IMG/VR virus record: IMGVR_UViG_3300025671_000038
Source: a virus
Strand: one strand, 5' to 3'
DNA length: 64,000 bases
The notes below the pieces were generated by a model that worked only from the letters and a program-made list of their open reading frames with translations, did not search any database and had not been told where the DNA came from. Positions 1 to 23,574 of the stretch are shown here, one piece after another (the first letter of the stretch is position 1; each line of letters begins with the position of its first letter). A program made the position numbers and the translations under genes.

Positions 1-223
1 CATTGCTCATATCTCCCATATCACCGACGATCAAACAAGAGTGATTCTCAAAGAGCTCATCAGTTTCCCAGACACTCCTGGATGATGGGTTACCCACACT
101 TTGACCTATTGCTATATTCCAAGCAGCAGATGCTAAATTCTTAGAACATTCAACATAATACTTAGCAAAGAAGTACTTGTCAGCATCTATTTGATTTCTC
201 GATTTAAATAATTCAGATTTCAT
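1..223 (-). CDS. RuBisCO-like protein (form IV/RLP), N-terminal 74 aa; runs off the window edge
   Basis: Hand translation from ATG at 223: MKSELFKSRNQIDADKYFFAKYYVECSKNLASAAWNIAIGQSVGNPSSRSVWETDELFENHSCLIVGDMGDMSN. The A-x-x-IA-x-x-QS-x-G segment matches the RbcL/RLP N-terminal domain. The start overlaps the cupin gene end. The catalytic domain lies outside the window. Confidence 0.72.
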   Translation of the reverse strand, partial: MKSELFKSRNQIDADKYFFAKYYVECSKNLASAAWNIAIGQSVGNPSSRSVWETDELFENHSCLIVGDMGDMSN

Positions 224-533
224 ACTTATCTCCCGGTTTAGAGGGTGTCTTAACTATAAAAACCTCGCAGTCTTCGAGGAAAACAGGATTAGCTATCTCG
301 TATTTCCTGATAACGAAAACATCACCAGCTTTGAGTATTTTGTCCTGTATAATCATTCTACCCTTGTGGAGGTAGTTTATTTCGTCAGCTTCTTTGTGAT
401 AGTGTGCTGGCCAATCCTCTCCTTTCTTATGCCTTTTAAAGCATATCTCAAATTGATCGGTTTTATAAGCGGAGGGAAGGAAGTCTCCAACGAACCATCC
501 ACCCTGGTAATCATCTATTTTAGATACTTCCAT
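213..533 (-). CDS. Cupin-fold protein
   Basis: GGWFVGDF start, His motif HYHKEADEINY, 106 aa all-beta pattern; overlaps both neighbours. Confidence 0.7.
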   Translation of the reverse strand: MEVSKIDDYQGGWFVGDFLPSAYKTDQFEICFKRHKKGEDWPAHYHKEADEINYLHKGRMIIQDKILKAGDVFVIRKYEIANPVFLEDCEVFIVKTPSKPGDKYEI

Positions 534-1266
534 TGGCTATTTTATTTTTATAAATCTCAAGATCTTCCGGGGTACCTATCGGGAAATGAAGGTTGAAGAA
601 ATATGGCAATATCTTTTTACCCCTCTTTATCAAATAGTTATATGAGGGAGCAACGTAAAACTCACTGTTATACCGGTCATTAGCTTCTATCATCTCCATC
701 GAGGATTCTACGAAATCGGACCCTCTCTTCCAGTAGTGCAATCCGTTAGTAGCTATATTTGATATAACTATTTTTTCCTTCACGTCACAAACTTCCCCGT
801 TTGGATCCAATTTGACGTAACTATTCTTTTTAGAGGAAGATAAAAAGCATCCTAAGAACCCATCACAAGCCGTATTTGAAGCAAACTTGGATAAAACATT
901 AAGATCATAGTCCAATATAATCTGATCACAGTTTACTATGATCAAAGGATCATTGGTATTAATGATAGACTGGGCCAGTAGAGCAGTACAGGCTGGTCCT
1001 TCTGTTAATTTCGGGGTGGAAATAACGTCATGTGAAATAGGCATATCGGATATGTGCCTCTTAAACTCATCGACAGATATGTGCTCCTCGTTGATCACGA
1101 ATATAAAATGGGCAGACTCATTGTGGAGGTTTCCGACTACGGTCCGTATCATAGAATCGTCGATGACCTTGATATAAGGTTTAATCTCGTTATACCCAGC
1201 ATCGGAAAATCTTTTTCCCATCCCGCCTAGGGGTATCAGTATATTAATCCTCCTTAAGTCTTCCAT
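520..1266 (-). CDS. Sugar-phosphate nucleotidyltransferase (NTP_transferase, GT-A fold)
   Basis: LIPLGGMGKRF...KP signature; TEGPACT, IVNCDQ, EK, NSEFY and GTPEDL motifs. Confidence 0.85.
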   Translation of the reverse strand: MEDLRRINILIPLGGMGKRFSDAGYNEIKPYIKVIDDSMIRTVVGNLHNESAHFIFVINEEHISVDEFKRHISDMPISHDVISTPKLTEGPACTALLAQSIINTNDPLIIVNCDQIILDYDLNVLSKFASNTACDGFLGCFLSSSKKNSYVKLDPNGEVCDVKEKIVISNIATNGLHYWKRGSDFVESSMEMIEANDRYNSEFYVAPSYNYLIKRGKKILPYFFNLHFPIGTPEDLEIYKNKIANGSI

Positions 1267-1912
1267 CTAAAAAAATACAAATCCAGGTAGCATCAATAAG
1301 ATCATCCAGAGGTTTATTTACATTTCCGCTGGGCGTTATCCATTCTCCCCTATTACTTTCAAGTATATTAGTGAAATAGCTCAGATTGGTTTCAGCTCTT
1401 TTACAATTAACTAGGGAATCATAGAGCTGATGTTTTTTTGCATTCCCTTTAATAGCGAATTTCTTAATGGAGGTCGGGGAAAAAACATAAAAATTCGAAC
1501 TACCCACCTCGTCAACTATTTTTTTTCTAAGTAGGGCAGTAGCCATAGAGATGTCAATTAGGGCATTACCATTGGATGCAAAACTTAAACCCTCCATAGC
1601 TATATAGATCTCGTCACCCTCTTGGGTGTGAGATATGACTGAATCCCAGAATCGGTCGACTAGGTCGGAAAAGTAATCAATCTTAAGCCTCTCCCTTTCG
1701 GAGTATTCCTCAGGCATTTTCTCTTTTCCCATAAACATGAGATCAAACCCATCCATTTCGGAGAGGAATGCGAATGGTTTTGCTTTAGATCTTTTTAGTG
1801 ATTCTTCTGTGCGATCACTTCGGGTAAGTGATCCCCATTTAAATTGATTATCCCTAAGCAAACAAAAAGCTGGCGAGTTCAGAGAAAAATCTATTCCGAT
1901 AAGAGTTCTCAA
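1244..1912 (-). CDS. RuvC-like Holliday junction resolvase (phage type)
   Basis: IGIDFSLNSPA (catalytic D), AMEGLSF (E), PTSIKKFA, DDLIDA (D/D); TTG start. Confidence 0.75.
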   Translation of the reverse strand: MRTLIGIDFSLNSPAFCLLRDNQFKWGSLTRSDRTEESLKRSKAKPFAFLSEMDGFDLMFMGKEKMPEEYSERERLKIDYFSDLVDRFWDSVISHTQEGDEIYIAMEGLSFASNGNALIDISMATALLRKKIVDEVGSSNFYVFSPTSIKKFAIKGNAKKHQLYDSLVNCKRAETNLSYFTNILESNRGEWITPSGNVNKPLDDLIDATWICIFLDGRLKED

Positions 1913-1952: not shown

Positions 1953-1979
1953 AAAAAACCCCCGAATTAAGGGGGTTTT
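1953..1979 (-). terminator. Intrinsic terminator
   Basis: Minus strand AAAACCCCC-TTAATTC-GGGGG-TTTTTT, downstream of ORF 2001..2366. Confidence 0.75.
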
Positions 1980-2643: not shown

Positions 2644-3204
2644 TTACCTCTCCCTGCCAATTTCTAGCGATATATCCAAATAATTGCACTTAAAGCCTAC
2701 AGAGAACGTATAAACACTGGGAGCATTTTGGGTGTAATTGAGATTCAGGTTGTTCATCGATGTTAGGGTTACTTCCTTAAAAGTTACCGTAGTAACTATA
2801 TTCCCATCGTTATCAAGTATTCTTAATGGCAGGTTCTGAATAAAGACCTGCGGGTTTTTAAAATTAAGCTTGTCCAAAACCGTCTCCAGCATTATGAAGT
2901 AGTTTATGAAACCCTCAGATATGCGGAAAGAGACCTCAAATTCTCTGCTAAATAGGTCTTGTACTGGGGTCGCACTTTGGTAATTTACCCGCTTACCCAG
3001 ATTTCTTGTCTGCTCCACTAGATCCATACTCATCCCAGGGAATCCCACGGATTGAATGGAGCTATTCATGAAGGAAGTTATAGTGTCGTAAGGGGTAGGC
3101 TGTCTTTTAATGTAGTCTAGGTACTTCTCCTGTACGATATCAGGGAAAAATCCTCTTGGAAAGACGAAGTAAAAGCTATTAGCCCTTGCGTTTAACATGC
3201 TCAT
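2644..3204 (-). CDS. Tail-tube-fold protein (T4 gp3/gp19-like, possibly tail completion)
   Basis: IQSVGFPG, FEVSFRISEGFINY, LRILD..G, FSVGF beta pattern and 186 aa size fit T4-like tube/terminator proteins. Confidence 0.55.
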   Translation of the reverse strand: MSMLNARANSFYFVFPRGFFPDIVQEKYLDYIKRQPTPYDTITSFMNSSIQSVGFPGMSMDLVEQTRNLGKRVNYQSATPVQDLFSREFEVSFRISEGFINYFIMLETVLDKLNFKNPQVFIQNLPLRILDNDGNIVTTVTFKEVTLTSMNNLNLNYTQNAPSVYTFSVGFKCNYLDISLEIGRER

Positions 3205-3721: not shown

Positions 3722-6163
3722 TTAGCTTCTGCCACCGAAACCGAAATCAGGGTCAAAGTTTGCAGAACCGCTATCGCTACCGGATTGGTTAGCAGTAGAT
3801 CCATTGGAAGAAGCAGATCCGCCAGTAGCTCTTCCCGCACTGGTGTTTCCATAAGCAAGAACTAGCTCCATATCTCCACTTCCGAATATCCCGTCAACTG
3901 CATCTACAAAAAGATTTTTCGTAATTCCAACATAAAGCTTGTAGCCGGTTGAACTTGGGTCCAGGAAATATGCTATTATTTCCTGAGTAGTCCACCCGGT
4001 AGCTATTTTACCCTGCACGTCGGAGGAGATTGCAGATTTCAGCTGAACTGGGGTTAGCTTAGGTTGGTTATTTCGGTTTACATTACCAGCTTTTCTGCCT
4101 AATCCACTAGTTCCAGAAGTTCCGTTTTGTACTCCCGAAACCTGCCAGGAACTTTTTCCAACTCTTTTTGATACAGGTTTAGTCCTAGGTGAGGTTGGAG
4201 CTACCACCACTTCAGCTGCTACAGCTGTTTGAACTGGCTCAGTCTCTCCGTCCTTTAGCCAATTACCCCAGTAAAGAGTAGAAAAAGAATTTCCACCTAT
4301 TTTTGCAGTATTGACGGCTCTACTAGTATTAGAATCCCTTTTGGATGCAATTACAACATCACGGGAAGAATCTCTTAAACTAATAGCTTTCTTAGCTAGC
4401 AGAGATTTAACCTTATTAACCTTAGAAATTCCCCTCGTATCAACATTATCGCCATCGGGATCTGGCGGTTTATTAGTGATATAAAATCTTCGGTCTGTAA
4501 ACTGAAGGATCTGTGTAGAGATCGACTCATCCACTTTGAAAGCAAGCTCCCCCTTAGAAGGCTTTGCTATAGTAGCGTCAGCAATTGAAGGTGCATAAAC
4601 TTTTTTACCCTTGTTGTCTATGAAAACCATATTGTAAGTTCCAGAGGAGCTAAGGTCTATCTCCTGGGTTGTATTTCCTTGTCCTTTCTTAAAGAAGGAA
4701 AATTTGTAGTAGTTATCAAACGGGCTGATCTTTATATAAGCTTTGCCTACCCCATACGAAACTGAAGGTGTACTAGACTCATTGGTTTCAGTTAGTGTAG
4801 TTCCATTTACTTCCAGATTTGTCAGAGAAGTGTTTACTAGATTTCTATCAAAGAACACGTTAGAAAATTTGGTAATCTCTCTGGGCGATATTTGATTAAC
4901 CGGTACTGAAATATCAGTTTTACCTCCTAGCTTATTGTATATCTTCTGTTGCTGAGGTAAAACGGAAAGTTGCAGAGGAGCAATGGTAGTACCATATTTA
5001 CCAGGATCAGTTGAAGTATAAGTAGCAACCCTCATGGTTCTTGTCTGATTCTTACTGTTAATGAGTGTCATTGTATACCTCAATGAAAAGCTCGTAGCAA
5101 CATTAGAATACCTAACAATAGGTCTAAATAAATTCGGGACGTCGTATGCTGAAGTCTGAATACTAGTAAAATTAGATGTTTCAAGCCAAGCTGCACCAAC
5201 CTGCTCAAGAACCTCTATCCTATTCTCTATATAGTAGCTGTTTCCTATAGAATTCTGAAACAGTATGAAATCCTCTATAAAACCCCCATCATCTGTTCCG
5301 AAATATTCAAAGAAATCTCCAGTATCTGCTGGAGCAATATAAGCTCCTATGTTACTGAATGGATCAGTGGGTTCGAGAGATAATGCTGCTAAAAGTTGAG
5401 TACCATAGGTTTCATATCCGCTAACAATCGTAGTATCAGTTATGGAATAGGCACTTATTCTTAGAGGCTGAGAAGCTAAAAATCCTCTCCCACTTTTCGA
5501 AGTTTTAGCGGCAAGGGTTAAAGGTCGATTGGATACACTAGCAGCATTGTATTTATTGACCATATCTGAGAGTGAAGGTATCTTCACCTCGAAATACTTA
5601 TCATATATGTTAGCACCTATTGTTAAAGGACTAGGATTCAACGTATACTGCTGGGAATTACCCTTTGAGAGTTTAATCTGCGAAAAGGTAACATAAGATC
5701 CGTCTACATCCGGGTACTTAACATTTAGTATCAATCCATCCAGGTTATCCAAATTATACCCGGATAGGATGTGGTACCTCACGGAGTCATACACAACACT
5801 GAGATTCGATGGAAAAGATATAGGAAGATCAGCGGTGTTGGTAAGCTCAGATTTAAAGTCGTTATAAGGGACTATTAAATTAGGGTTTAGAGTTACGAAG
5901 GTCGTGGAATTAGTTTGCACCACACTATTGTTGGACGTGTTCTGTGTAATTGAAGCATTCTCGTCCAGATTGAATATTTGAACGTCATTAGAGGGCTGTC
6001 CGTCCGAATCTTCCAGTAAGCCATTTACGAGCTTATTATAACCCACTGTGGGGCTGCCAATATTGACAAAGTACTTCTCCGGGGTAGGTGGGCTGGCATA
6101 CATATATTCCATGACCAGATACGGGGAAAGTTGTACATATTTAGAGGTTGTCGTAAAAGCCAT
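3722..6163 (-). CDS. Large hypothetical virion structural protein (813 aa)
   Basis: Ser/Thr/Asn-rich beta protein in the tail operon; low-complexity Gly/Ser C-terminus. Confidence 0.5.
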   Translation of the reverse strand: MAFTTTSKYVQLSPYLVMEYMYASPPTPEKYFVNIGSPTVGYNKLVNGLLEDSDGQPSNDVQIFNLDENASITQNTSNNSVVQTNSTTFVTLNPNLIVPYNDFKSELTNTADLPISFPSNLSVVYDSVRYHILSGYNLDNLDGLILNVKYPDVDGSYVTFSQIKLSKGNSQQYTLNPSPLTIGANIYDKYFEVKIPSLSDMVNKYNAASVSNRPLTLAAKTSKSGRGFLASQPLRISAYSITDTTIVSGYETYGTQLLAALSLEPTDPFSNIGAYIAPADTGDFFEYFGTDDGGFIEDFILFQNSIGNSYYIENRIEVLEQVGAAWLETSNFTSIQTSAYDVPNLFRPIVRYSNVATSFSLRYTMTLINSKNQTRTMRVATYTSTDPGKYGTTIAPLQLSVLPQQQKIYNKLGGKTDISVPVNQISPREITKFSNVFFDRNLVNTSLTNLEVNGTTLTETNESSTPSVSYGVGKAYIKISPFDNYYKFSFFKKGQGNTTQEIDLSSSGTYNMVFIDNKGKKVYAPSIADATIAKPSKGELAFKVDESISTQILQFTDRRFYITNKPPDPDGDNVDTRGISKVNKVKSLLAKKAISLRDSSRDVVIASKRDSNTSRAVNTAKIGGNSFSTLYWGNWLKDGETEPVQTAVAAEVVVAPTSPRTKPVSKRVGKSSWQVSGVQNGTSGTSGLGRKAGNVNRNNQPKLTPVQLKSAISSDVQGKIATGWTTQEIIAYFLDPSSTGYKLYVGITKNLFVDAVDGIFGSGDMELVLAYGNTSAGRATGGSASSNGSTANQSGSDSGSANFDPDFGFGGRS

Positions 6164-22788: not shown

Positions 22789-23574
22789 ATGCTTGGAAAT
22801 AAACCCTCCATCAGGAGAGTATATGATTTGAAGACAAAAAAGTCCGAATTAAGACTGGTTGAACCCAATCAGGCCAAGCTTATTCCAGTTATTATGTGCA
22901 CTTGGATGAGAATAGAGGGATTCAAAAGAGTAGTAGAAAACCTAAACCGCCAGTCACACCGGAGCTTCAAACTTTTTGTGTGGAATAATAACCCAGACAT
23001 TACTGAAGAAATTTTATCCATACTATCCGAAAAAGCTTCTTTTAGCTCAGACGTATTCCAAAGCGAGGTTAACATAGGTGGATTTGGGAGGTTCTATTTT
23101 GCTAATTTTCTATACGGTGATCCAAGGTTAGAAAGATATTGCATCTTTATAGATGACGATCAGACATTTGAGGAAGATATGATTAAAAAATTCTCACAGG
23201 AAGCTTCACCGAAAACCATACTCTCCCAGTGGTCTTGGAAATTTAATTCAACCAGGTACTTCGGAAGAGAAAACCGGGTGCTGGTAGAGCCGCATAATGA
23301 GGTTCACCACTGTGGAACCGGAGGGATGGTAGCAGATATGGAGATATTTATGGAAAGGGATCTTTATGAATGTCCAAAGAAATATTGGTTCATAGAAGAT
23401 CTCTGGCTTTCATACTTTTCAAGTCATGTGAAAGGATATAAACTACTGAAGAGCTCCACGATATTTCAAAACGGATCGGATGAGCATAATCTAAACGACA
23501 TAGTAAAGGAACAAAAAGAAACCATGCTAGCTGAACTAATAGAAGATCTAGGATGGGATATACTCAAAAAATAA
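22789..23574 (+). CDS. Glycosyltransferase family 2 (GT-A fold)
   Basis: VIMCTW, FVWNN, NIGGFGRF, IFIDDD (DxD), IEDLWLS. Confidence 0.8.
   Translation: MLGNKPSIRRVYDLKTKKSELRLVEPNQAKLIPVIMCTWMRIEGFKRVVENLNRQSHRSFKLFVWNNNPDITEEILSILSEKASFSSDVFQSEVNIGGFGRFYFANFLYGDPRLERYCIFIDDDQTFEEDMIKKFSQEASPKTILSQWSWKFNSTRYFGRENRVLVEPHNEVHHCGTGGMVADMEIFMERDLYECPKKYWFIEDLWLSYFSSHVKGYKLLKSSTIFQNGSDEHNLNDIVKEQKETMLAELIEDLGWDILKK

What the first reader, a model, noticed from the sequence alone, without database searches (positions are those of the whole stretch)
1..1266. Coupled nucleotidyltransferase-cupin-RLP cassette: candidate pathway to an unusual activated sugar
The three genes overlap end to start (520-533 and 213-223), which implies translational coupling (seen). 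An NDP-sugar pyrophosphorylase-like enzyme, a cupin (often a sugar isomerase or epimerase) and an RLP would form a route from a phospho-sugar to a nucleotide-activated, possibly branched or carboxylated, sugar (inference). This would be a biosynthetic role for an RLP rather than salvage or catabolism.
Basis: partly seen in the sequence, partly recalled or inferred. Interest (0 to 1): 0.8.

Follow-up and report, generated by a model that had tools for sequence, protein, structure and literature searches.

The report
Phage RuBisCO-like sugar-activation gene cassette
A large uncultured phage carries a RuBisCO relative that cannot fix CO2 and that, in viruses, bacteria and archaea, sits beside (and is sometimes fused to) a sugar-activating enzyme and a small cupin, which points to an untested sugar-building role for this enzyme family.

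Summary
On the minus strand, a nucleotidyltransferase (520-1266), a 106-aa cupin (213-533) and the first 74 codons of a 396-aa RuBisCO-like protein (RLP, 2-223) overlap by 14 and 11 nt. The window is the end of a 116-kb IMG/VR phage record. Beyond the edge the operon continues with a mini GDPD-like phosphodiesterase, a GT-A-fold transferase and gp32.

Among 56 related loci, 53 have the nucleotidyltransferase within 3 kb of the RLP (median gap 20 nt). These include phages, SAR11, Legionella, Nonomuraea, Patescibacteria and DPANN archaea. Natural fusions exist: RLP-NTPtr, GDPD-RLP and RLP-NTPtr-cupin. The neighbours are glycan genes: glycosyltransferases, LicD, WavE and sugar epimerases.

The RLP belongs to a monophyletic clade. 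It keeps the Mg/carbamate enolisation residues but has lost the carboxylation residues (E60G, N123G, H294Q, K334Y). A carboxylated product is therefore unlikely.

The most likely role is an enolising isomerase or epimerase acting on a phospho-ketose. Its product would be nucleotide-activated and transferred to a glycan. The substrate is unknown.

Phage RLPs were reported in 2019 without a function. I found no paper linking them to nucleotidyltransferases. This scan has already noted the same cassette on other DNA (78 notes).

The parts
520..1266 (-). Nucleotidyltransferase, 248 aa (sugar-phosphate nucleotidyltransferase type)
   Evidence: PF00483 E 5e-11. phrog_3980 E 9e-53. A family profile matches the uncharacterised V. 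cholerae pyrophosphorylase 4evw at 2.7e-35, then GDP-mannose, RmlA and GalU enzymes at 1e-12 to 1e-7, with IspD and LicC only at about 1e-4. Invariant P12, G15, G17, R19 (the G-x-G-x-R loop), D114 and K165. It lies within 3 kb of the RLP in 53 of 56 loci.
213..533 (-). Small single-domain cupin, 106 aa
   Evidence: Cupin_2 20.9 bits, below cut-off. phrog_24762 E 1e-30. Best solved relatives are KdgF-type cupins 5fpz/5fpx at E 2e-3. Present within 3 kb of the RLP in 9 of 10 viral and 12 of 46 cellular loci. It forms the C-terminal domain of the triple fusions P0271 and P0272.
2..223 (-). First 74 codons of the 396-aa RuBisCO-like protein. The gene continues off the window to G000:C1:64964. Next come the 147-aa GDPD-like gene (C1:64971-65414), the 261-aa GT-A-like gene (C1:65411-66196) and the gp32-like gene (C1:66236-67189), all outside the window.
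   Evidence: PF00016 E 2e-33 and PF02788 E 2e-4 on the full protein. Every NCBIfam equivalog scores far below its cut-off. Active-site signature. Clade support 99. GDPD-like protein: AF2 pLDDT 95.7, top folds are GDPDs, invariant HRG..EN..ExD..HD. GT-A-like protein: pLDDT 73.5, Foldseek hits GT6 enzymes at E 3e-7. gp32: PF08804 E 1.8e-11.
1244..1912 (-). RuvC-like resolvase gene, 222 aa. It is the first gene of the same tightly packed unit and overlaps the NTPtr start by 23 nt. It is not part of the conserved cassette.
   Evidence: phrog_159 E 5.5e-14. Conserved next to the cassette only in the two closest phage contigs, L003 and L004.
1959..1974 (-). Terminator-like hairpin with a T-run upstream of the RuvC-like gene. 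It marks the likely 5' border of the transcription unit.
   Evidence: L002 24-39, stem CCCCT/GGGGG followed by six T. Consensus match only.

Best explanation
The three genes are part of a conserved, mobile biosynthetic module whose core is a non-carboxylating RuBisCO-like protein plus a sugar-phosphate nucleotidyltransferase. The cupin, a miniature GDPD-like phosphodiesterase and a transferase are frequent accessories.

Proposed mechanism:
1. The RLP uses its retained carbamylated-Lys/Asp/Glu Mg2+ site, Lys175/Lys177 and the Gly-rich phosphate site to enolise a phospho-ketose. The substrate is most likely a 1-phospho-2-keto sugar carrying a single strongly bound phosphate. The RLP returns it as an isomer or epimer.
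2. The cupin, where present, carries out a follow-up tautomerisation or epimerisation.
3. The nucleotidyltransferase condenses the resulting sugar phosphate with an NTP to give an NDP-activated unit.
4. A transferase places that unit on a glycan. In this phage the transferase is the GT-A-fold protein, in Legionella it is LicD, and elsewhere it is other glycosyltransferases.

Shown: gene identities, the linkage, the fusions, the glycan context and the active-site pattern. Inferred: the chemistry, the order of steps, the substrate, the product and the acceptor.
For: Linkage: NTPtr, cupin, RLP and the 147-aa gene recur in all 16 related IMG/VR loci although the flanks differ. In 56 loci with a full RLP, the NTPtr is within 3 kb in 53, with a median gap of 20 nt. 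None of the 8 non-clade RuBisCO/RLP loci has it.

Fusions: P0124 is RLP+NTPtr. P0164 is GDPD-like+RLP. P0271 and P0272 are RLP+NTPtr+cupin, and P0271 lies on two independent assemblies.

Context: GT1, GT2, GT7, GT9, GT10, GT17 and GT61 glycosyltransferases, FkbM methyltransferases, UDP-Glc dehydrogenase, UDP-GlcNAc 2-epimerase, SDR epimerases, WavE, CMP-sugar synthetase, and LicD in four Legionellaceae.

Active site: 58 of 76 clade members share G-N-P-G-K-K-K-D-E-Q-K-D-H-S-C-G-G-G at the 18 canonical positions. K175, K177, K201, D203, E204, H327, S379, G381, G403 and G404 are kept.

The NTPtr is nearer to hexose-1-P nucleotidyltransferases than to IspD or LicC.

Precedent: phages make NDP-arabinose from Ru5P with an isomerase, a kinase, a HAD phosphatase and an NTPtr (PMC13326640). 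Cultured cyanophages carry NTPtr, cupin and GDPD-like homologues with SIS isomerase, class II aldolase, kinase and HAD but no RLP.
Against: No biochemical data exist for any member. The cassette has no kinase, mutase or phosphatase to supply an anomeric sugar-1-phosphate, so the link between the RLP product and the NTPtr substrate is a gap. The cupin is absent from about 60% of loci and the GDPD-like gene from about half, so their roles are not essential. Some 'cellular' loci are short MAG or SAG contigs that could be phage DNA. The complete Pelagibacter chromosome, the Legionella isolates and Nonomuraea rosea are not open to that doubt. In this phage the cassette sits among replication genes rather than in a glycan island. 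The LicD link rests on four related Legionellaceae and may be inherited synteny.
Confidence: 0.6

Rival explanations
1. In this phage the cassette supplies an NDP-sugar for glycosylating the phage's own DNA (a hypermodified base), not a surface glycan.
For: The cassette lies in one unit with the RuvC-like and gp32 genes and next to primase and helicase. T4-like and other phages encode NDP-arabinose pathways for DNA glycosylation (PMC13326640). An unchecked scan note (e1-5800770) reports a dCMP-modifying ThyA-like gene with two glycosyltransferases in this genome.
Against: The same module occurs in cellular genomes and in phage islands full of polysaccharide-type enzymes: FkbM, GT9, WavE and LicD. 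PF00303 finds no ThyA-family gene in the 116-kb record, which is however only 42% complete. The adjacent transferase has a GT6-like GT-A fold. From my own knowledge, the T4 DNA glucosyltransferases have a GT-B fold.
Confidence: 0.12
2. The RLP and cupin form a salvage route for SAM by-products such as methylthioribose or 5-deoxyribose phosphates. This would resemble MtnW/MtnD, or the Rhodospirillum rubrum RLP with its cupin methylsulfurylase. The NTPtr would be incidental.
For: RLP plus cupin is the pairing of the R. rubrum MTA-isoprenoid shunt, and MtnD is a cupin (established knowledge; papers listed in PMC6302742). MtnW models are among the better NCBIfam hits, at 157 and 129 bits. All known RLP substrates are 1-phospho-2-keto compounds.
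Against: Scores are far below the MtnW cut-offs of 409 and 514. The MtnW base position (N123 to K in the YkrW-type rows of my alignment) is Gly here. The cupin has no detectable similarity to ARD or to any solved methylsulfurylase-like cupin. No MtnA, MtnB, MtnK or MtnX gene accompanies the pair. The constant partner, and the fusion partner, is an NTPtr.
Confidence: 0.08
3. The protein is a working carboxylase (form III-like) that consumes ribulose bisphosphate derived from nucleotides during infection.
For: The best NCBIfam hit is type III RuBisCO, at 181.7 bits. IF-2B-RuBisCO fusions turn up among distant relatives (P0152, P0158).
Against: The cut-off is 497 bits. E60, T65, W66, N123, H294, R295, H298 and K334 are all replaced, and the replacements are conserved across the clade. 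No AMP phosphorylase or R15P isomerase is nearby.
Confidence: 0.02

Closest known systems
'Form IV-like' RuBisCO-related proteins of phages and Beckwithbacteria (Jaffe, Castelle, Dupont, Banfield 2019, PMC6389311)
   Same: Almost certainly the same clade. Both are IMG/VR phage contigs, partly myovirus-like. A Beckwithbacteria sequence (L029) falls inside my clade. Both are divergent from other RLPs with altered key residues.
   Different: That paper left the function 'unclear' and, in the text I read, does not describe gene neighbourhoods. Here the clade is tied to a nucleotidyltransferase by adjacency and by fusion. It is also extended to SAR11, Legionella, Nonomuraea, DPANN archaea and an NCLDV-like contig.
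MtnW/YkrW 2,3-diketo-5-methylthiopentyl-1-phosphate enolase (form IV RLP)
   Same: Same fold, the K201/D203/E204 metal site and the Gly-rich phosphate site. It is a non-carboxylating enolising enzyme. The PDB hits 2zvi and 2oek score 1e-35.
   Different: About 30% identity or less. NCBIfam scores are 157 and 129 bits against cut-offs of 409 and 514. K177 and H327 are kept here but lost in the YkrW-type rows. The YkrW-type Lys at position 123 is Gly here. The context is glycan synthesis rather than methionine salvage.
Rhodospirillum rubrum RLP (5-methylthioribulose-1-P 1,3-isomerase) with its cupin 1-methylthioxylulose-5-P methylsulfurylase
   Same: An RLP working with a small cupin on a phospho-ketose. 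This is a precedent for an RLP as an isomerase rather than a lyase.
   Different: The resemblance rests on recalled literature (titles in PMC6302742). No sequence link to that cupin was found. The partner here is an NTPtr, and the context is glycosyltransferases.
Phage and bacterial NDP-arabinose and NDP-heptose routes (SIS isomerase, anomeric kinase, HAD phosphatase, nucleotidyltransferase), and cyanophage glycan islands (S-CAM9, Bellamy, S-SM2, S-SKS1)
   Same: The logic runs from a ketose phosphate to an NDP-sugar to a transferase. Homologues of the NTPtr (25-41% identity), the cupin (45%) and the 147-aa GDPD-like protein (36-46%) sit in these cyanophage islands.
   Different: No cultured phage in GenBank has the RLP. 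Those islands use SIS isomerase, class II aldolase, kinase and HAD, whereas this cassette has the RLP. That suggests, but does not show, non-orthologous replacement.
Type II phosphomannose isomerase / GDP-mannose pyrophosphorylase (NTP_transferase domain followed by a cupin domain)
   Same: The same order of an NTP_transferase module followed by a cupin, as in genes 520-1266 then 213-533 and in the fusions. GDP-mannose pyrophosphorylases are the next-best solved relatives of the NTPtr.
   Different: The cupin does not hit PF01050. The resemblance is one of architecture only.

Membership tests
RuBisCO large-subunit superfamily | N-terminal alpha/beta domain plus C-terminal TIM barrel (PF02788 + PF00016) | tested here: met
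   PF00016 116 bits (cut-off 30.1). PF02788 21.8 bits (cut-off 20.7)..
Bona fide RuBisCO (forms I-III) | Complete catalytic set E60, T65, W66, N123, K175, K177, K201, D203, E204, H294, R295, H298, H327, K334, S379, G381, G403, G404 | tested here: not met
   E60G, T65N, W66P, N123G, H294Q, R295K, H298D and K334Y. The remaining positions are kept. TIGR03326 scores 181.7 bits against a cut-off of 497.
MtnW/YkrW enolase | Score above the equivalog cut-off. Lys at the position of N123 as catalytic base. | tested here: not met
   PRK09549 scores 156.9 against 409. TIGR03332 scores 129 against 513.6. Position 123 is Gly.
OiaX 3-oxo-isoapionate-4-phosphate decarboxylase | Score above the equivalog cut-off | tested here: not met
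   NF042437 scores 141.7 bits against a cut-off of 700.
'Form IV-like' phage/Beckwithbacteria clade (Jaffe et al. 2019) | Groups with phage and Beckwithbacteria sequences, apart from other RLPs | tested here: met
   The 76-row clade is one side of a branch, with SH-like support 99. It contains L029 (Beckwithbacteria), L025 (Patescibacteria) and all IMG/VR rows.
Sugar-phosphate nucleotidyltransferase (PF00483) | Score above the Pfam cut-off. N-terminal G-x-G-x-R NTP-binding loop. | tested here: met
   43 bits against 21.2. G15, G17 and R19 are invariant in 16 family members. Nucleotide and sugar specificity cannot be tested with these tools.
Cupin superfamily | Two-motif beta-barrel with metal ligands H-x-H...E in motif 1 | tested here: inconclusive
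   Cupin_2 scores 20.9 bits, below the 27.2 cut-off. Motif 1 is intact by eye. The motif 2 His is absent. KdgF-type cupins match at E 2e-3. No structure was predicted for it.
Glycerophosphodiester phosphodiesterase (GDPD) | Full (beta/alpha)8 barrel with HRG, E-N, E-x-D and H-D catalytic and metal residues | tested here: inconclusive
   No Pfam or NCBIfam hit. The motifs HRG, EN, ExD and HD are invariant. In the AF2 model the top folds are GDPDs, but only at E 6.5e-3, TM 0.55. At 147 aa it is too short for a full barrel.
GT-A glycosyltransferase (GT6-like) / DUF7796 | GT-A Rossmann-like fold with a nucleotide-sugar site | tested here: inconclusive
   Foldseek hits BoGT6a 4ayl at E 3e-7, but TM is about 0.4 and model pLDDT is 73.5. 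DUF7796 scores 14.4 bits, below cut-off. Atlas neighbours are DUF7796 viral clusters.

The most novel reading that the evidence does not exclude
This clade of the RuBisCO superfamily catalyses a reaction not yet described for the fold: an isomerisation or epimerisation of a phospho-ketose. The product is directly nucleotide-activated by its (sometimes fused) partner and built into surface glycans of phages, giant viruses, SAR11, Legionella and DPANN/CPR organisms. That would be the first biosynthetic, glycan-directed role for a RuBisCO-like protein, and a route to an as yet unidentified sugar in abundant marine microbes.
Probability: 0.5. Interest if true: 0.8.

Novelty: new variant of a known kind. 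Interest (0 to 1): 0.7.

Why it matters
Characterised RuBisCO-like proteins work in salvage or catabolism: methionine salvage, the MTA shunt and apiose breakdown. A clade locked to a nucleotidyltransferase inside glycan loci would add a biosynthetic role to the superfamily. It would also give a function to the 'IV-like' phage RLPs left unexplained in 2019. The module is abundant in ocean and freshwater metagenomes (more than 120 clusters above 60% identity). It occurs in SAR11, so its product may be a common but unknown component of microbial and viral surfaces that matters for phage-host recognition. The hypothesis can be tested directly. The natural triple fusion offers a single-protein system, and cultivable Legionella species carry the minimal RLP+NTPtr pair next to LicD.

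Tried and rejected
- RLP against 50,697 GenBank phage records by tblastn: no match. The RLP is so far confined to uncultured phages.
- PF00303 (ThyA family), PF01370 (SDR epimerase) and PF13419 (HAD) in the 116-kb record: none. I could therefore not confirm a DNA-hypermodification partner, a dehydratase or a phosphatase. The record is only 42% complete.
- A 706-aa ORF spanning RLP, cupin and NTPtr in Azospirillum (L060) looked like a fusion. The tblastn pieces are in different frames, so I rejected it as an alternative-frame ORF of a GC-rich genome.
- I first read loop 6 as deleted. The multiple alignment shows K334 replaced by a conserved Tyr.
- Foldseek of the 147-aa model gave no hit below E 1e-3. 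The GDPD reading rests on motifs plus weak fold ranking.
- Paper searches for RuBisCO-like with nucleotidyltransferase, cytidylyltransferase or glycosyltransferase gene cluster found nothing relevant. 'IV-GOS' appears in one review only, so I could not check my recollection that this is Tabita's IV-GOS group.
- The Atlas searches returned only unnamed viral clusters.
Full report
**What is in the sequence.** The window is the reverse complement of bases 1-63996 of a 116,154-bp IMG/VR virus record. The record is linear and estimated 42% complete. On the window's minus strand lie three genes:
- a 248-aa gene at 520-1266;
- a 106-aa gene at 213-533;
- an open frame at 2-223 that runs off the edge.

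The 248-aa protein is an NTP_transferase (PF00483, E 5e-11). The 106-aa protein is a weak Cupin_2 match with an intact H-x-H...E motif. I fetched the record beyond the edge as L002. The third gene then reads as a complete 396-aa RuBisCO large-subunit homologue (PF00016, E 2e-33).

The unit continues outside the window:
- After a 6-nt gap comes a 147-aa gene.
- A 4-nt overlap leads into a 261-aa gene.
- A gp32-like gene follows (PF08804, E 1.8e-11).

Upstream, a RuvC-like gene (phrog_159) overlaps the NTPtr start by 23 nt. Terminator-like hairpins bracket the whole run, from before the RuvC-like gene to after gp32. No HAD phosphatase or SDR is present in the record. Two GT2 genes lie about 23 and 26 kb away.

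**The RLP is not a carboxylase.** All NCBIfam equivalogs score far below their cut-offs. Type III RuBisCO scores 182 against 497, MtnW 157 against 409, and OiaX 142 against 700. I aligned the protein to solved RuBisCOs and to 173 relatives, with these results:
- Kept: K175, K177, K201, D203, E204, H327, S379, G381, G403 and G404.
- Replaced: E60G, T65N, W66P, N123G, H294Q, R295K, H298D, G380C and K334Y.

Exactly this 18-position signature occurs in 58 of 76 members of one clade. That clade is one side of a branch with SH-like support 99 in a FastTree tree of 174 rows.

From established RuBisCO enzymology, the retained residues are the Mg2+/carbamate enolisation apparatus and the main-chain phosphate site next to the carbonyl. 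The lost residues serve CO2 addition, hydration/cleavage and the distal phosphate. I therefore infer an enolising enzyme acting on a 1-phospho-2-keto compound with one firmly bound phosphate. This is inference, not a result.

**Linkage.**
- A scan of IMG/VR found 16 loci with RLPs 59-86% identical. NTPtr, cupin, RLP and the 147-aa gene recur in them, while the flanks are unrelated except in the two closest contigs.
- A scan of one genome per prokaryotic species found 57 loci. The clade (35-60% identity) occurs in a complete Candidatus Pelagibacter chromosome and many SAR11 single-cell genomes. It also occurs in a Verrucomicrobiae chromosome, Patescibacteria including Beckwithbacteria, and Woesearchaeota, Nanoarchaeia and Micrarchaeota. 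Further hosts are Legionella drozanskii, L. nautarum, L. maceachernii, Tatlockia, a Francisellaceae MAG, Turneriella, Nonomuraea rosea, Azospirillum and Elusimicrobia.
- Of 56 loci with a full-length clade RLP, 53 have an NTPtr homologue within 3 kb, with a median gap of 20 nt. Two of the three exceptions are short contigs.
- The cupin is within 3 kb in 21 loci, the GDPD-like gene in 28 and an SDR in 13.
- None of the eight non-clade RuBisCO/RLP loci has the NTPtr.

**Fusions.** A search of 1.84 billion representatives and a search for longer proteins gave these:
- P0124 (667 aa): RLP followed by NTPtr.
- P0164 (288 aa, cut at a contig end): GDPD-like followed by RLP.
- P0271 (813 aa) and P0272 (817 aa): RLP, NTPtr and cupin in one chain.

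P0271 is encoded on two independent assemblies. One of them also carries a poxvirus VLTF3-like gene and a P9_TM gene, which suggests a eukaryotic or PRD1-like virus.

**Context.**
- In related phage contigs the cassette sits in glycan islands. These hold GT1, GT2, GT7-like and GT10 transferases, FkbM methyltransferases, UDP-glucose dehydrogenase, UDP-GlcNAc 2-epimerase and SDR epimerases.
- In SAR11 the neighbours include GT9, GT17, GT61, DUF4422, a CMP-sugar synthetase-type gene and a HAD-NTPtr fusion.
- In a Saccharibacteria-like MAG the neighbour is WavE.
- In four Legionellaceae a LicD phosphotransferase lies about 400 bp upstream of RLP+NTPtr.

**The accessory genes.**
- The 147-aa protein folds with pLDDT 95.7. 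Its invariant HRG, EN, ExD and HD motifs and its best, though weak, structural matches are those of glycerophosphodiester phosphodiesterases. At 147 aa it is a stripped-down barrel.
- The 261-aa protein is a DUF7796-like viral family with a GT-A fold nearest to GT6 enzymes. A DUF7796-like gene also neighbours the SAR11 cassettes.

**Cultured phages.** No GenBank phage has the RLP. Synechococcus myophages (S-CAM9, S-PRM1, S-SM2, Bellamy, SynMITS9220M01, B3/B23, S-SKS1) carry homologues of the NTPtr, the cupin and the 147-aa protein. In these phages the NTPtr is often fused to a HAD domain. The genes sit in islands with glycosyltransferases, SIS 'phosphoheptose isomerase', class II aldolase and a kinase. 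That is the enzyme set of the NDP-heptose and NDP-arabinose routes, the latter recently described for phage DNA arabinosylation (PMC13326640). One reading is that the RLP (with or without the cupin) replaces the isomerase/kinase/phosphatase part of such a route. This is suggestive only.

**Most likely mechanism and rivals.** I put 0.6 on the general model: a phospho-ketose is rearranged by the RLP, trimmed by the cupin where present, nucleotide-activated by the NTPtr and transferred to a glycan.
- A profile of the NTPtr family is closest to an uncharacterised V. cholerae enzyme (4evw, 2.7e-35), then to GDP-mannose, RmlA and GalU enzymes, and much less to IspD or LicC. This favours a sugar-1-phosphate-type substrate. 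The Legionella LicD neighbour would instead fit a phosphodiester-linked unit. That tension is unresolved.
- DNA-glycosylation donor supply in this particular phage: 0.12.
- SAM by-product salvage: 0.08.
- True carboxylation: 0.02.

**What is known.** Jaffe et al. (PMC6389311) reported about 80 'IV-like' RLPs on phage contigs and in Beckwithbacteria and left their function open. Full-text searches found no paper connecting RLPs with nucleotidyltransferases or glycan clusters. The presence of an RLP in phages is therefore known. The module, its fusions and its cross-domain spread appear undescribed in the literature I could search.

Within this scan the same cassette has been noted 78 times in at least 48 genomes. 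Earlier follow-ups reached similar conclusions. I read those only after my own analysis was complete.

Noticed in passing
L081:6001-8442 (JGI 3300053698) and L082:471-2912: An 813-aa RLP-NTPtr-cupin single polypeptide on a contig that also carries a Pox_VLTF3-like gene and a P9_TM gene. This points to a giant-virus or PRD1-like host genome for the fused form.
   Followed up: partly
P0152, P0158, P0178, P0258: Other fusions among more distant RuBisCO relatives: IF-2B (R15P/MTR-1-P isomerase family) with RuBisCO, a TIR domain with an RLP, and an RLP with an APH-type kinase domain.
   Followed up: no
P0167 and P0273: Clade RLPs fused to domains with no Pfam match: about 330 aa at the N-terminus in P0167 and about 330 aa at the C-terminus in P0273.
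   Followed up: no
L058:10882-12210 (Nonomuraea rosea): A 442-aa protein with an S-adenosylhomocysteine-hydrolase NAD-binding domain directly follows RLP-cupin-NTPtr in an actinomycete. This may be a natural-product context.
   Followed up: no
window 22888-23208 (+) and G000:C1:90406-90756: Two GT2-family glycosyltransferase genes elsewhere in the same phage record. By eye, the N-termini of ORFs at C1:110563-113604 look like a DegT-type aminotransferase and an acetyltransferase, and C1:85507-87093 looks like a carbamoyltransferase. None of these by-eye readings was tested.
   Followed up: no
window 2644-3204 (-) and 3722-6163 (-): A tail-tube-like gene (phrog_45, E 5e-7) and an 813-aa protein with no PHROG match lie just upstream of the operon. 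The cassette therefore sits at a junction between structural and replication modules.
   Followed up: no
L064:6761-7612 (-), also L065, L067, L069: A LicD-family gene is conserved about 400 bp upstream of RLP+NTPtr in four Legionellaceae. These loci lack the GDPD-like gene, so the two might substitute for each other.
   Followed up: partly
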